From Candidatus Microgenomates bacterium (GTDB lineage Bacteria; Patescibacteriota; Microgenomatia; JACQLA01), in contig JACQLA010000003.1 of assembly GCA_016204255.1 (NCBI GenBank), positions 250,088-309,928 of the forward strand: DNA of 59,841 nt. Direction: 5' to 3'. Position numbers and translations under genes: made by a program. The notes beneath the pieces were generated by a model. The model saw only the letters and a program-made list of their open reading frames with translations. It made no database searches and was not told the origin of the DNA. Positions 8,286 to 56,208 of the stretch are shown here, piece after piece. Every line of letters starts with the position of its first letter. The stretch's first letter is position 1.

Positions 8286-8358
8286 CGTCATTGCGAGCGC
8301 AGTGAAGCAATCTCATTGCAATATATTACTACAGTCGGATTCTCGACCCTCGCAATGA
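8286..8358. repeat. CGTC-tagged REP-like element (GTCATTGCGAG subtype)
   Basis: CGTCATTGCGAG..GAAGCAATCT ... CTCGCAATGA. Confidence 0.75.
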
Positions 8359-8371
8359 TAAGAAACTGTAA

Positions 8372-24731: not shown

Positions 24732-24780
24732 TGATTACTATTCTATCAAACTTAAGAATTTATTGCGGCGCTTCGCGCAT

Positions 24781-24829
24781 AGACTTCTCACGGAGTTTAC
24801 ACCGAGTGACGAATGTGTTCAAAATGACG
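24781..24829. repeat. Degenerate right arm of the CGTC-type REP
   Basis: AGACTTCTC..TTCAAAATGACG. Confidence 0.55.
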
Positions 24830-24864
24830 AAATTTTGACGTTCCGTTTCCCTCAATAACTACGT

Positions 24865-25255
24865 GTCATTTCGAAGGATTCGGCAAAGCCGAAGACTGAG
24901 AAATCTAGCATAGCGCAATTTGATAAGATTGATTAACAGTGAAAAGATATTTTGTTTATATTATTACCAATTACGAAAATAACGTTTTCTACACCGGCAT
25001 AACTAATAATTTAGAAAGAAGAATATGGAAACATCAGAATGGTTTCATTAAGAACTCTTTTTGTGTAAGATATAGGCTTTACAAACTAATCTGGTTTGAA
25101 GAATTTTCCCACCCCTCTGAAGCAATTAATGCTGAAAAGAAGGTTAAAGATATGAGGCGAGAAAGAAAGATTAATATTATTAAAGCTTTTAATCCGAAAT
25201 TTAAAGATTTATCTGCGCTTCGCTAGATTTCTCGCCCTACTGGCTTCGAAATGAC
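24865..25255 (+). mobile_element. GIY-YIG gene enclosed by bipartite inverted repeats (candidate autonomous REP-associated element)
   Basis: GTCATTTCGAAG (24865-76)..GAGAAATCTAG (24898-908) / CTAGATTTCTC (25223-33)..CTTCGAAATGAC (25244-55); the 12-bp and 11-bp arms match perfectly. Mobility is inferred, not shown. Confidence 0.6.
24939..25226 (+). CDS. Small stand-alone GIY-YIG nuclease
   Basis: YFVYII..FYTGITNNLERRIWKH..EAINAEKKVK; the stop codon lies inside the right repeat arm. Confidence 0.92.
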   Translation: MKRYFVYIITNYENNVFYTGITNNLERRIWKHQNGFIKNSFCVRYRLYKLIWFEEFSHPSEAINAEKKVKDMRRERKINIIKAFNPKFKDLSALR

Positions 25256-25264
25256 GCGCTGGTT

Positions 25265-30053: not shown

Positions 30054-30167
30054 CGTCATTTCGAGCCCCACCCATGGGGCGAGAAATCTAGCGAAGGGAC
30101 GTCAGACGTCCCGAAGCGTAAATTGCGGCACTTCGTGCCTAGATTTCTCATTTCATTCGAAATGACT
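30054..30167. repeat. Complete gene-less CGTC-type REP element between rpsB and tsf
   Basis: CGTCATTTCGAG..GAGAAATCTAG / CTAGATTTCTC..TTCGAAATGAC, with three internal mini-hairpins. Confidence 0.85.
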
Positions 30168-31943: not shown

Positions 31944-32001
31944 GAGGTTCAACCTCCCCCATCCTCGTCATTTCGAGCACAGCGAGAAATCTAGCGAAGC
32001 G
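31944..32001. repeat. AGGT-N3-ACCT unit plus the left arm of a CGTC-type REP
   Basis: GAGGTTCAACCTC (31944-56); CGTCATTTCGAG..GAGAAATCTAGCGAAGCG (31966-32001). Confidence 0.75.
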
Positions 32002-33215: not shown

Positions 33216-33243
33216 AGATTGATTTACTACGCTCGCAATGACA
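33216..33243. repeat. Right arm of a CGTC-type REP (TTGCGAG subtype)
   Basis: AGATTG..CTCGCAATGACA. Confidence 0.6.
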
Positions 33244-36196: not shown

Positions 36197-36223
36197 CGTC
36201 ATTGCGAACGAAGTGAAGCAATC
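36197..36223. repeat. Left arm of a CGTC-type REP (TTGCGA subtype)
   Basis: CGTCATTGCGAA..GAAGCAATC. Confidence 0.7.
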
Positions 36224-37952: not shown

Positions 37953-38055
37953 TGTCATTCTGAGCCTCGGCTACGCCGGACGAAGAATCTCATTATCTCG
38001 TAGAGAATCTGAGAATCGTTTACTCCCGAGATTCTTCACTTTGTTCAGAATGACA
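37953..38055. repeat. Complete gene-less CGTC-type REP (GTCATTCTGA subtype)
   Basis: TGTCATTCTGAG..GAAGAATCTC / GAGATTCTTC..TTCAGAATGACA. Confidence 0.85.
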
Positions 38056-39487: not shown

Positions 39488-39592
39488 CGTCATTTCGAAC
39501 GAAGTGAGAAATCTAGTCCCAATTTTATGGGACGCAATTACGCTTCGCTAGATTTCTCGTCCCCCGATCTGATCGGGGGACTCGAAATGACG
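39488..39592. repeat. Complete gene-less CGTC-type REP carrying a CCGAT-N3-ATCGG hairpin
   Basis: CGTCATTTCGAA..GAGAAATCTAG / CTAGATTTCTC-GTCCCCCGATCTGATCGGGGGAC-TCGAAATGACG. Confidence 0.88.
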
Positions 39593-53657: not shown

Positions 53658-54621
53658 TTCTGAGATAGCGCGTTACAACCATCTAAACGCTTCTCACCCA
53701 CGGAGCACACGGTTTTCCCGTACTCTCGCGGACGGCTATCCAAACATTGGCCTTCTATTATTCATAAATTCCCTGATTTTCAAAAGTTGGTCTATACCTT
53801 TCTCAGTAAGATGGTCTTTTTTCCTGAAAATCTCTGCTGCCTGGCAGAAAAGTTCAAAGTCCTTTCCCTTCTTACCTTTTAAGGGAAATTTCTTAAAGAA
53901 CGGAATAACCTTATGAAGAATATCGCCTTGTTTCCTAACGACAAACTTTACGTGAGGTTTCCATCCATATCTATCATAATTCAGTTCTACTATTCTTCCA
54001 CAGTCAAGCCTTTTTTGAATTAACTCCAAAATTGGTTTATCGTCTGCCCGAAGCTCAATTTCAAAACAAAGATTTGCATCCCTACCTGTTTTCTTTGTTT
54101 TATGCTTCGTTATCAGAATAGCAAAACATCCTTCCCCATCGGTAAAACCAACAATATACCACGGACTTAAAAACTTGTATGCACTCATGTTTGGTTAGCT
54201 TCGATCCTTCACCCCGATTAAATCGGGACTACTATGATCTCTGCAGACTTCCAGTATTTACTCGGTGTCAGTTCACACTGACACTTACTTCCATTGTTGA
54301 TTAACAACAAATAAAAGTCAATACTGGATCTCCCTTTGTAGCCATATTTTCCATCTATTATCATCTTGAGCCCAATTACCTAATTAGCTGTATTTAGTAA
54401 ATGGCTTCCCTATTTGTACGAAAGGTCGCCAACTGATTAGGCCGTCTCGACTTCAAGCTAATAACTGTTACTTTAGCCCTTCTCGCTCCAACATTACTGC
54501 AGGAGGATGCTATTTCGCTTTAAGAGCGTTACTTACTCTTAGAAGGATTTCCCGCTTCGACTTCGTCGAAGACGAGGCGAGTCACCTTCTGGAAAAAATG
54601 GCCGAAAGGCGCAATTTATTT
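53658..54621 (-). mobile_element. Group II-like intron (964 nt) at about E. coli 16S position 1396, with a LAGLIDADG ORF in domain IV
   Basis: Splits CTTGTACA|CACCGCC. TTGCGCC near the 5' end; GAAGTCTGCAGAGATCATAGTAG..GAAGGATCGAA domain III-like motif; CGC-triad domain V-like hairpin; domain VI-like stem with a bulged A. Confidence 0.8.
53736..54188 (-). CDS. Single-motif LAGLIDADG homing endonuclease
   Basis: WYIVGFTDGEGCF motif; VIPFFKKFPLKGKKGKDFELF tail. Confidence 0.95.
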   Translation of the reverse strand: MSAYKFLSPWYIVGFTDGEGCFAILITKHKTKKTGRDANLCFEIELRADDKPILELIQKRLDCGRIVELNYDRYGWKPHVKFVVRKQGDILHKVIPFFKKFPLKGKKGKDFELFCQAAEIFRKKDHLTEKGIDQLLKIREFMNNRRPMFG

Positions 54622-55074
54622 TGTACAAGACCCGAGAACGTATTCACCGCGGCCTGCTGATCCGCGATTACTAGCAATTCCGCGTTCATGGGGGCGGGTT
54701 TCAGCCCCCAATTCCAACTGAGGCGAAATTTTAGAGATTAGCATACCGTTGCCGGTTAGCCACTCGTTGTTATTCGCCATTGTAGTGTGTGTGTAGCCCA
54801 GGGCATAAGGGACGTGCTGACTTGACGTCGTCCCCGCCTTCCTCCCCCGATTTAATCGGGGGCAGTTCCCTTTGAAAAAATTTAACAAAGGGTGAGGGTT
54901 GCGCTCGTTATGGCACTTAAGCCTACACCTCACGGTACGAGCTGACGACAGCCATGCATCACCTGTTCTACCTTCCTTGCGGATCGTCCCGCTTTTCGGC
55001 GGAACTAAAACGGTAAAATGTCAAGCCCTGGTGAGGTTCTTCGCTTCGTCTCGAATTGAACCACACGCTCCACT

Positions 55075-55136
<62 letters not shown>

Positions 55137-56208
55137 CTCGCTTAACGGGTTACCTTACGACACTCAAGTAAACTCGAGTATCTAGCGAGCATCGTTTACG
55201 GCTAGGACTACGCAGGTCTCTAATCTGCTTCGCTACCCTAGCTTTCGTGCCTCAGCGTCAAAATTTGGCTAGAGGTCTGCCTTCGCTTTTGGTGTTCTTT
55301 CCGATATCAACGCATTTCACTGCTACACCGGAAATTCCAACCTCTCCACCAATTTTCAAGTCAGACAGTATCACACCCTTTTCTCTGATTAAGTCGGAGT
55401 CTTTAAGGTATGACTTACCTGACCGCCTACGCACTCTTTACGCCCAGTAAATCCGGATAATGCTTGCACCCTACGTATTACCGAGGCTTCTGGCACGTAG
55501 TTAGCAGGTGCTTATTCATCCCGACATACGTCGGAATAAAAGAGGTTTACAACCCGAAGGCCTTCATCCCTCACGCGGCGTCGCTGCGTCAGGCTTTCGC
55601 CCATTGCGCAATATTCCCGGTTGCTGCCACCCGTAGGTGTATGGACCGTATCTCAGTTCCATTCTGGGGGGTCGTGCTCTCACACCCCCTACCCGTCATA
55701 GGTTTGGTGAGCTATTACCTCACCAACTGCCTGATAGGACGCAGGCCACTCCCGAGGTGGGAAGTTAAGCCCTTTACTCCCCCGATTAAATCGGAGGAGA
55801 CCATGAGGGATTACCCCGTCTTTCGACGAGCTATACCTCTCCTCGGGGCATGTTCCTACGCGTTACTCAGCCGTCTGCCACTGATTTGGCTTGCGCCAAA
55901 CCCGTTCGACTTGCATACCTAAGGCACGCCGCCAGCATTCATCCTGAGCCAGGATCAAACTCTCAAAAAATGCCCGTCTCGACTGTCTTGCAACAGTAAG
56001 ACGAGGCGGATATTCCTGCTACATCCTGACTATCGAAAATTTAAAAAGTGATGTTTGCTTATTAAGTTTTAAAGGTGCTTATGATGCTGGACAAAGAAAA
56101 ACCCCGCCAAGCGGGGCCTTATTTCGTTATCCACTTGGGCAAAAATCACATCATCATAAATTTAAAATTCTTTTCTGCGCCAATTAAAAACCAACGCATT
56201 GCATATAT

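What the first reader, a model, noticed from the sequence alone, without database searches (positions are those of the whole stretch)
24781..25256. GIY-YIG nuclease enclosed by the genome's own REP arms: candidate mobiliser of CGTC-type palindromes
Seen: the 95-aa nuclease gene lies between perfect bipartite arms (12 bp outer, 11 bp inner, variable spacer hairpin), with its stop codon inside the right arm. The same arms occur without a gene at 30054-30167 and 39488-39592, as sequence variants at 37953-38055 and 8286-8358, and as half copies at 24781, 31966, 33216 and 36197. In the variants both arms change compensatorily (TTTCGA/AAATCT, TTCTGA/GAATCT, TTGCGA/CAATC). Knowledge: GTAG REPs are paired with RAYT transposases, and as I recall no dedicated enzyme has been assigned to CGTC-tagged REPs (please verify). 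Inference: an autonomous/non-autonomous pair analogous to RAYT/REPIN but driven by a GIY-YIG nuclease, possibly recognising a DNA or RNA hairpin.
Basis: partly seen in the sequence, partly recalled or inferred. Interest (0 to 1): 0.85.

Follow-up and report, generated by a model that had tools for sequence, protein, structure and literature searches.

The report
Ssn nuclease flanked by hairpin repeats
A tiny GIY-YIG nuclease gene sits between two inverted copies of the genome's own hairpin repeat, and it belongs to the Ssn nuclease/SRM repeat system published in 2025, so it is a real but already explained pairing.

Summary
A 95-aa GIY-YIG ORF (24939-25226) lies between two inverted hairpin units (24865-24909 and 25222-25255), and its stop codon is inside the right unit. 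The unit reads YGTCAT-stem-GA..GA-stem'-ATCTAG. It occurs about 66 times in this 0.71-Mb Patescibacteria-like genome, against about 0.6 expected by chance for the stricter pattern. Twenty-four or 25 units pairs are 'heads-outward' doublets and none is heads-inward.

The gene-repeat link generalises:
- In 95 related genes from more than 10 phyla, 86 have GTCAT and/or ATGAC arms.
- These genes form one well-supported clade.
- Repeat-rich relatives always carry the gene.
- Arm subtype clusters on the protein tree.

The link is not new. Chenal et al. 2025 (Nat Commun 16:2388) described this family as Ssn, single-domain GIY-YIG nucleases flanked by NTS/SRM repeats. These repeats are the CGTC-tagged REPs, including Neisseria dRS3. 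The authors showed that SsnA binds the hairpin only as single-stranded DNA and cuts just upstream of it.

The mobiliser idea remains an untested hypothesis that the authors also raised.

What is particular here is the tandem G.A variant of the hairpin, which the published SRM search pattern misses. There are also several arm subtypes and two cognate paralogues in one tiny genome.

Verdict: a new member of a known kind, of modest interest.

The parts
24865..24909 (+). Left SRM-type unit. It has the head (T)GTCAT and an outer stem ATTTC/GAAAT. A tandem G.A internal loop follows, then an inner hairpin TTCGGC-AAA-GCCGAA and the tail ATCTAGC.
   Evidence: DNA fold -7.7 kcal/mol, z = -2.3
24939..25226 (+). 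ssn-like gene encoding a 95-aa single-domain GIY-YIG nuclease. It has a GTG start, and its stop codon TAG (25224-25226) lies inside the right unit.
   Evidence: PF01541 at E=1.3e-15. Y7, Y18, R28, H32, E66 and N85 are invariant in the alignment. The protein is 41% identical (E=4e-26) to a Neisseria sp. homologue. It falls inside the arm-flanked clade with 100/90 support.
25222..25255 (-). Right SRM-type unit, inverted relative to the left one. It has the same head, outer stem and tail but a different loop.
24768..24828 (-). Decayed unit carrying the long-loop module CACATTCGTCAC..GTAAACTCC. Its head faces the head of the left unit.
   Evidence: the same loop module occurs in other units
30055..30166 (.). 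Gene-less heads-outward doublet of the TTTC subtype.
39489..39591 (.). Gene-less heads-outward doublet of the TTTC subtype. The loop of the right unit holds a nested CCCCCGAT-N3-ATCGGGGG palindrome.
37954..38054 (.). Gene-less heads-outward doublet of the TTCT subtype.
8287..8359 (.). TTGC-subtype unit (8287-8312) with a decayed partner whose head reads ATGAT.
31967..32001 (+). Solo TTTC unit with the extended tail ATCTAGCGAAGCG.
36198..36223 (+). Solo TTGC unit.
33216..33242 (-). Decayed TTGC unit. The head half GTCATTGCGAGCG is intact and the 3' stem is reduced to CAATC.

Best explanation
The locus is a member of the Ssn/SRM system. The 95-aa protein is an Ssn-family single-domain GIY-YIG nuclease. 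The flanking and dispersed units are its Ssn-related motifs, which belong to the CGTC/TGTC-tagged REP superfamily that includes Neisseria dRS3/NTS.

By homology with the characterised SsnA proteins, I infer that the enzyme binds the hairpin formed by the head strand (YGTCAT-stem-loop-stem-ATCTAG) only when the DNA is single-stranded. I further infer that it cuts a few nucleotides 5' of the head, and not on dsDNA, RNA or the complementary strand.

The roughly 66 units and 24-25 doublets in this genome would be its binding and cleavage sites. Two paralogues (this gene with TTTC arms, and one at C4:53188-53406 with TTGC arms) each sit between their own arm subtype.

The biological role is inferred, not shown. 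It could be processing of ssDNA that carries the repeats, for example incoming transforming DNA, since a ComEC gene is present. It could also be maintenance or spread of the repeat family.
For: **Architecture and repeat census**
- The gene, arms and stop-in-arm layout are as described.
- The census finds 66 units and 24-25 heads-outward doublets, two of them holding ssn genes, with no heads-inward pair.
- The head (Y at -1 in 61/66, then GTCAT) and the tail (ATC-T-A-G) fit the published NTS consensus CGTCAT...ATCYRG.

**Protein**
- It is a single GIY-YIG domain of 95 aa.
- Residues matching the published catalytic Y6, Y17 and E64 are invariant here as Y7, Y18 and E66.
- It is 41% identical over its full length to a Neisseria sp. 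homologue flanked by dRS3-like repeats.
- A clade with 100/90 support contains all arm-flanked genes.

**Across genomes**
- 51 of 80 cross-phylum loci have exact GTCAT upstream and ATGAC downstream; my own estimate of the chance expectation is about 2 of 80.
- Unit number tracks gene presence at the genome level (Mann-Whitney p=1.4e-8).
- Arm class clusters on the protein tree.
- The closest metagenome relatives (58-68% identity) keep the TTTC/TTCT-GA arms and the stop codon inside the tail.

**DNA rather than RNA**
- Stems are 48/50 perfectly Watson-Crick, and G.T is no commoner than A.C.

**Literature**
- PMC11893778 and PMC3733652.
- ComEC is present in the genome.
Against: - The CDD assignment to cd10448 and direct homology to the characterised N. 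meningitidis SsnA could not be tested. Only a proxy Neisseria sp. homologue was available.
- The published degenerate SRM pattern matches only 2 sites in this genome, which is chance level (1.9), because the stems here carry a tandem G.A.
- Minimal units are predicted to be barely stable as DNA hairpins: -1.3 kcal/mol, no better than shuffles. The structure therefore rests on covariation, not on thermodynamics.
- The TTCT/TCCT subtype (21 units) has no cognate gene in this 81%-complete assembly.
- No biochemical data exist for any Patescibacteria member.
Confidence: 0.87

Rival explanations
1. This is the first reader's model, also raised as a hypothesis by Chenal et al. SRM-ssn-SRM would be an autonomous IS-like element, and the gene-less doublets would be its non-autonomous (MITE/REPIN-like) partners. 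The GIY-YIG nuclease would mobilise them through cuts at ssDNA hairpins, analogous to RAYT/REPIN or IS200/IS605.
For: - All 24-25 doublets have the same heads-outward orientation as the two gene-bearing elements, and none is heads-inward.
- Dispersed units share idiosyncratic loop modules, so they arose by copying.
- Doublet families are about 90% alike at different loci.
- Doublet centres hold a leader-like GAAGCGTAAATTG and a 3'-end-like CTTCGCTAG, as seen around ssn genes in relatives.
- The genome has no Y1 transposase that could do the job instead.
- Unit number tracks gene presence.
Against: - No target-site duplication or defined target was found.
- No empty or filled polymorphism was found. 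Contigs from two other runs are 100% identical, and relatives at 69% ProRS identity have a different gene order.
- Similarity of doublet centres to this element's inner ends exceeds shuffles in only 4-5 of 11 cases.
- A 95-aa nuclease has no known strand-transfer or ligation activity.
- The only in vivo phenotype published concerns transformation, not transposition.
Confidence: 0.3
2. Homing-type model. REP doublets would pre-exist as host elements, and a free-standing GIY-YIG homing endonuclease gene would have invaded the centre of a doublet that contains its cleavage site.
For: - The gene sits exactly at the centre of a doublet architecture that also exists without it.
- GIY-YIG homing endonucleases are well known.
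Against: - The protein has only the catalytic domain and lacks the DNA-binding domain of I-TevI-type enzymes. TIGR01453 scores 17 bits against a cut-off of 56.
- Characterised relatives do not cut dsDNA.
- Arms and protein co-vary across phyla, which fits recognition of the arms rather than of a central site.
Confidence: 0.07
3. The units would act at the RNA level, as terminators, mRNA stabilisers or a structured RNA partner of the nuclease. The gene's position between them would be incidental or regulatory.
For: - Tandem G.A motifs and GNRA-like pentaloops (GAAGT, GCAGT) look RNA-like.
- CGTC REPs were earlier proposed to work as RNA elements.
Against: - There is no excess of G.U-compatible pairs on the head strand: 1 G.T against 1 A.C in 50 units.
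- No Rfam family matches.
- SsnA does not bind RNA.
- The gene-arm association holds across phyla regardless of neighbouring genes.
Confidence: 0.04

Closest known systems
Ssn nucleases with NTS/SRM repeats (SsnA of Neisseria meningitidis, NMV_0044; Chenal et al. 2025, Nat Commun 16:2388, PMC11893778)
   Same: - The protein is a single GIY-YIG domain of about 95 aa with conserved Tyr, Tyr and Glu.
- The gene is flanked on both sides by inverted oriented hairpin repeats with head YGTCAT and tail ATCYRG.
- The same repeat is dispersed in many copies.
- Repeat-rich genomes carry the gene.
   Different: - The stems carry a tandem G.A internal loop (TTTC-GA, TTCT-GA, TTGC-GA), and loops are often long. 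The published SRM search pattern therefore misses them: 2 hits here, and 28 of 95 sampled loci are detectable only with a G.A-type pattern.
- The host is a 0.7-Mb Patescibacteria-like genome with two paralogues and at least three arm subtypes.
- No biochemistry exists for this member.
CGTC-tagged REP superfamily (Di Nocera et al. 2013, PMC3733652), including dRS3/NIME of Neisseria and RPE-4/-6 of Rickettsia
   Same: - There is an unpaired C/TGTC tag.
- The stem begins with A-T and T-A pairs.
- The tail is short.
- The units are frequently organised as inverted dimers with 20-100-bp spacers.
   Different: - The stems are interrupted by G.A/G.A rather than being 8-9 contiguous base pairs.
- The tail is CTAG rather than CCA.
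- That paper concluded that these repeats lack a dedicated enzyme, which has since been superseded.
RAYT/REPIN and IS200/IS605 (Y1 transposases acting on ssDNA hairpins)
   Same: - A small nuclease gene is flanked by the genome's own hairpin repeats.
- The doublets look like non-autonomous partners.
- The hairpin is recognised as ssDNA.
   Different: - The enzyme fold and chemistry are unrelated: a GIY-YIG hydrolytic nuclease against an HUH tyrosine transposase.
- The genome has no Y1_Tnp gene.
- Transposition has not been demonstrated.
UPF0213 / YhbQ-type small GIY-YIG proteins (PDB 1ywl, 1zg2)
   Same: Same fold and size. They are the nearest solved structures (E=4e-6 and 5e-5).
   Different: They are only distantly related. 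A UPF0213 subfamily membership for this protein was not tested in a phylogeny here. I know of no association of UPF0213 proteins with flanking hairpin repeats, but I did not check their flanks.

Membership tests
Ssn nuclease family (cd10448; Chenal 2025) | Single-domain GIY-YIG protein of about 90-100 aa | tested here: met
   PF01541 covers residues 4-79 of 95, and no other domain is present.
Ssn nuclease family (cd10448; Chenal 2025) | Conserved catalytic residues (Nm SsnA Y6, Y17, E64) | tested here: met
   Y7, Y18 and E66, together with R28, H32 and N85, are invariant in a 15-sequence alignment. The published mutants are described.
Ssn nuclease family (cd10448; Chenal 2025) | Homology to N. 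meningitidis SsnA (tblastn E<1e-10) and placement in the cd10448 clade | tested here: inconclusive
   Neither CDD nor the NMV_0044 sequence was available. As a proxy, the protein is 41% identical (E=4e-26) to a Neisseria sp. homologue flanked by dRS3-like repeats. It shares a clade with that homologue at 100/90 support.
Ssn nuclease family (cd10448; Chenal 2025) | Gene flanked 5' and 3' by inverted SRM hairpin repeats | tested here: met
   Units at 24865-24909 (+) and 25222-25255 (-).
Ssn nuclease family (cd10448; Chenal 2025) | Repeats fit the published SRM search sequence HGTCWYN(0-2)YYVSBRHN(0-5)WNVSBRGN(0-2)RNCYNB | tested here: not met
   Only 2 matches in the genome against 1.9 by chance, and none at this locus. 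The head HGTCWY and the tail RNCYNB do fit. The stem and loop part fails because of the G.A pairs and the longer loops.
Ssn nuclease family (cd10448; Chenal 2025) | Site-specific cleavage of ssDNA only, upstream of the hairpin | not testable with these tools
   Needs purified protein and oligonucleotide substrates.
CGTC-tagged REP superfamily (Di Nocera 2013) | Unpaired CGTC/TGTC tag at one end of a short palindrome whose stem starts with A-T and T-A | tested here: met
   Y precedes GTC in 61 of 66 units, and every stem starts with AT.
CGTC-tagged REP superfamily (Di Nocera 2013) | Contiguous 8-9-bp stem, 4-5-nt loop, CCA-like tail | tested here: not met
   The outer stem is 5 bp, followed by a 2x2 G.A loop and an inner stem. 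Loops run from 5 to more than 30 nt, and the tail is CTAG.
RAYT/REPIN | Y1 (HUH) transposase gene flanked by GTAG-tagged REPs | tested here: not met
   No PF01797 match in the genome. The tag is YGTC, not GTAG.
GIY-YIG homing endonucleases (I-TevI type) | Catalytic domain joined to a DNA-binding domain; located in an intron or free-standing in phage | tested here: not met
   The protein has 95 aa and only the catalytic domain. TIGR01453 scores 17 bits against a cut-off of 56.

The most novel reading that the evidence does not exclude
The Ssn gene with its two arms would be a true autonomous mobile element, and the heads-outward doublets its non-autonomous partners. GIY-YIG hairpin-directed ssDNA nucleases would then be a third, independent class of REP mobiliser, beside RAYT and IS200/IS605 TnpA. 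Arm subtype and nuclease paralogue would co-evolve even within a 0.7-Mb genome.
Probability: 0.25. Interest if true: 0.7.

Novelty: new member of a known kind. Interest (0 to 1): 0.3.

Why it matters
For annotation, the small unnamed ORF, which was not among the genes called on identical public contigs, can be labelled an Ssn-family ssDNA nuclease. The roughly 66 palindromes can be labelled its SRM repeats.

For the field there are two modest additions. First, a tandem G.A class of SRM is common in Patescibacteria and also occurs in other phyla, yet the published search pattern cannot see it. The reported 71% and 42% flanking rates are therefore probably underestimates. Second, a very small genome holds several arm subtypes and two paralogues, each between arms of its own subtype, which makes it a compact natural test set for Ssn specificity.

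Whether Ssn mobilises the repeats remains open and would matter if shown.

Tried and rejected
- **Rfam.** A scan of the window found only rRNA, two tRNAs and a group II intron piece, with nothing at the units.
- **RNA reading.** Rejected, because G.T and A.C are equally rare in the stems.
- **Literature.** GIY-YIG with 'repetitive extragenic palindromic' gave 0 papers, and GIY-YIG with YhbQ also gave 0. The key paper surfaced only through 'dRS3'. No follow-up on Ssn was found.
- **The search for related loci with alignments.** A two-sequence alignment worked.
- **Empty-site search.** Exact-match contigs from two other runs are 100% identical over the whole locus. The nearest ProRS relatives are at most 75% identical and have a different gene downstream. 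This is uninformative.
- **Target-site duplication.** None was seen, only a pyrimidine preference at positions -1 and -2.
- **Deletion-derivative test.** Similarity of doublet centres to this element's inner ends is above shuffles in only 4-5 of 11 cases.
- **Thermodynamic support.** It is weak for the minimal units.
- **RAYT as mobiliser.** There is no Y1_Tnp gene in the genome.

Full report
**1. The observation**

The window is part of contig C5 of a 711,806-bp, 41% G+C, 8-contig genome. The assembly is 81% complete, and its relatives in the collection are small Patescibacteria-type genomes.

An ORF at 24939-25226 (+) has a GTG start and encodes 95 aa. It matches Pfam GIY-YIG (PF01541) at E=1.3e-15 over residues 4-79.

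The ORF is bracketed by two inverted copies of a bipartite sequence:
- On the left, GTCATTTCGAAG (24865-24876) and GAGAAATCTAGC (24898-24909).
- On the right, the reverse complements at 25244-25255 and 25222-25233.
- The stop codon TAG (25224-25226) lies inside the right copy.

I make three corrections. The copy at 24781 is a complete but decayed unit in the opposite orientation. The copy at 33216 is a decayed TTGC unit. The tag is TGTC more often than CGTC.

**2. Anatomy of the unit**

Each copy is one oriented unit. It consists of Y-GTC, a 5-bp outer stem starting with AT (ATTTC/GAAAT, ATTCT/AGAAT, ATTGC/GCAAT and others), a symmetric 5'-GA/5'-GA internal loop, an inner stem with a 5-nt loop or a longer insert, and then C-T-A-G.

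- A pattern requiring head, GA, GA and tail finds 43 units in the genome, against 0.6 in simulated sequence.
- A census requiring a complementary outer stem gives 66 units of seven stem subtypes.
- The outer stems are perfectly Watson-Crick in 48 of 50 units. One unit has a G.T and one an A.C. The stems therefore covary, but show no G.U bias that would point to RNA.
- The base before GTC is a pyrimidine in 61 of 66 units, and the tail is ATC-T-A-G.
- Units pair into 24-25 heads-outward doublets. Two of these enclose GIY-YIG genes. No heads-inward pair of intact units exists.
- Several dispersed units share an idiosyncratic long-loop module, so the copies descend from one another.
- No target-site duplication is visible.
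- By nearest-neighbour energies the left unit folds as drawn (-7.7 kcal/mol, z=-2.3). The minimal units are not predicted to be stable. The case for the structure therefore rests on covariation.

**3. The gene family and its arms**

The genome has nine small GIY-YIG genes. Only two are flanked by units: this one, with TTTC arms, and C4:53188-53406, with TTGC arms. The other seven lie in tRNA gene clusters and have no such arms.

- In 60 genomes of the same class, every hit that covers the full length at E<1e-14 is flanked by GTCAT-hairpin arms. The tRNA-cluster type is not.
- A scan of one genome per species returned 80 loci from Patescibacteria, Alpha-, Beta- and Gammaproteobacteria, Bacteroidota, Verrucomicrobiota, Melainabacteria, Omnitrophota, Nitrospinota, Bipolaricaulota, Deferribacterota and others.
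- Of these 80 loci, 51 have exact GTCAT within 160 nt upstream and ATGAC within 200 nt downstream. By my own estimate about 2 would be expected by chance.
- In a maximum-likelihood tree of 114 proteins, a clade with 100/90 support holds all 86 genes with at least one arm. It includes this protein, the C4 paralogue and a Neisseria sp. homologue. The 19 proteins outside the clade have no arms.
- Many proteobacterial arms read GTCATTCCCGCGAAAGCGGGAATCCAG. This led me to the Neisseria dRS3 literature.

**4. What is already known**

Di Nocera et al. 2013 (PMC3733652) defined the CGTC-tagged REP superfamily, in which dRS3 is CGTC-1. They concluded that these repeats 'apparently lack a dedicated transposase'.

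Chenal et al. 2025 (PMC11893778) then reported the following:
- About half of dRS3 copies are an oriented 28-nt element, NTS (CGTCATTCCCGCGMAVGCGGGAATCYRG).
- NTS-like 'Ssn-related motifs' (SRM) flank homologues of a 94-aa single-domain GIY-YIG gene, ssnA, which belongs to CDD family cd10448. Across phyla, 71% of homologues have at least one SRM nearby and 42% have one on both sides.
- 81% of genomes with more than 200 SRMs carry the gene.
- Purified SsnA binds the hairpin only as ssDNA. It does not act on dsDNA, RNA or the reverse strand, and it cuts a few nucleotides upstream. The mutants Y6A, Y17A and E64A are inactive.
- Deleting ssnA raises transformation with NTS-bearing DNA about five-fold.
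- The authors note that NTS-ssnA-NTS looks like an insertion sequence and compare it with IS200/IS605 and REP/BIME. They do not show mobility.
- I found no follow-up paper.

**5. Membership**

The protein meets the size, domain and catalytic-residue criteria. It is 41% identical (E=4e-26) to a Neisseria sp. homologue and lies in the arm-flanked clade.

The cd10448 assignment itself, and homology to the characterised protein, could not be tested. Nearest solved structures are UPF0213 proteins 1ywl and 1zg2.

The repeats share the head and tail of NTS. However, the published degenerate SRM pattern finds only 2 sites in this genome, against 1.9 by chance. Among my 95 clade loci it detects arms at 24. 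A G.A-type pattern detects arms at a disjoint set of 28. The tandem G.A hairpin is therefore a variant class of SRM that the published survey could not see.

**6.

- **Enrichment of arms near the subfamily:** met (section 3).
- **Repeat-rich genomes lacking the gene:** not seen. Across 61 genomes, the median unit count is 17.5 with an Ssn-clade gene and 1 without (Mann-Whitney p=1.4e-8). All 10 genomes with at least 15 units have the gene. The genomes are not phylogenetically independent, although almost all are from different genera.
- **Co-variation of arm subtype with protein clade:** three arm classes need 16 changes on the tree against 33 in shuffles, and 0 of 300 shuffles was as low. The tree is poorly resolved. 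The closest metagenome relatives (58-68% identity) keep TTTC/TTCT-GA arms and the stop codon inside the tail.
- **Filled versus empty alleles:** not obtained.

**7. Mechanism and rivals**

The most likely reading (0.87) is an Ssn/SRM member that acts as a hairpin-directed, strand-specific ssDNA nuclease. Its role in this organism is inferred. A ComEC gene is present, so the published 'ssDNA restriction during transformation' model is possible.

The mobiliser model (about 0.3, and not exclusive of the above) draws on four points:
- The exclusive heads-outward orientation of the doublets.
- The copy families among units and doublets.
- The absence of a Y1 transposase.
- Leader-like and 3'-end-like strings in the doublet centres.

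It lacks any direct evidence, and the similarity test is weak. The homing-endonuclease and RNA-element readings are unlikely.

**8. Verdict**

It is already explained in kind by a 2025 paper. It is a new member, with a variant hairpin, of a known system.

Noticed in passing
G000 C5:74699-74914, C5:145782-146006, C5:22671-22880, C2:173207-173410, C2:175997-176218, C2:178069-178269, C2:183676-183885 (outside the window): Seven further small GIY-YIG genes sit inside tRNA gene clusters. They fall outside the Ssn clade and have no GTCAT arms. Some carry their own upstream hairpins, present in only 2-3 copies. The same type is seen in relatives (L019-L030).
   Followed up: partly
window 24939-25226; loci L111 and L112: The 95-aa GTG-start ORF is not among the genes called on the two identical public contigs.
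   Followed up: no
G000 C6:40447-40511: This is a single doublet of fully paired, canonical NTS-like units (GTCATTCCCGCGAAAGCGGGAATCC). One of its units is one of only two sites in the genome that fit the published SRM pattern.
   Followed up: no
window 39559-39581; also C5:144366, C5:157703, C5:200848: The loops of several units contain a second small palindrome, CCCCGAT-N3-ATCGGGG, so one repeat is nested within another.
   Followed up: no
window 24768-24828; C2:111510, C5:125208, C5:200745, C5:91330: A roughly 28-nt loop module (CACATTCGTYACRCTCAGYGTAAACTCC) is shared by five dispersed units, one of them decayed and lying next to the ssn element.
   Followed up: partly
L113:2211-2687 and L114:1209-1685: Relatives with 69% identical ProRS carry a 158-aa Y1_Tnp-like gene just upstream of proS. 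The window's genome has none.
   Followed up: no
window 54204-54287: Rfam reports a group II intron D1-D4 piece next to or inside the 16S rRNA region (16S at 54539-55970).
   Followed up: no
L117-L124 upstream of the ssn genes; window 24910-24938: The left tail is followed by AGCGTA(A/T)AAT in relatives and by GCGCAATTTGATAAGAT here. This looks like a -10 box for ssn placed directly after the left hairpin.
   Followed up: no
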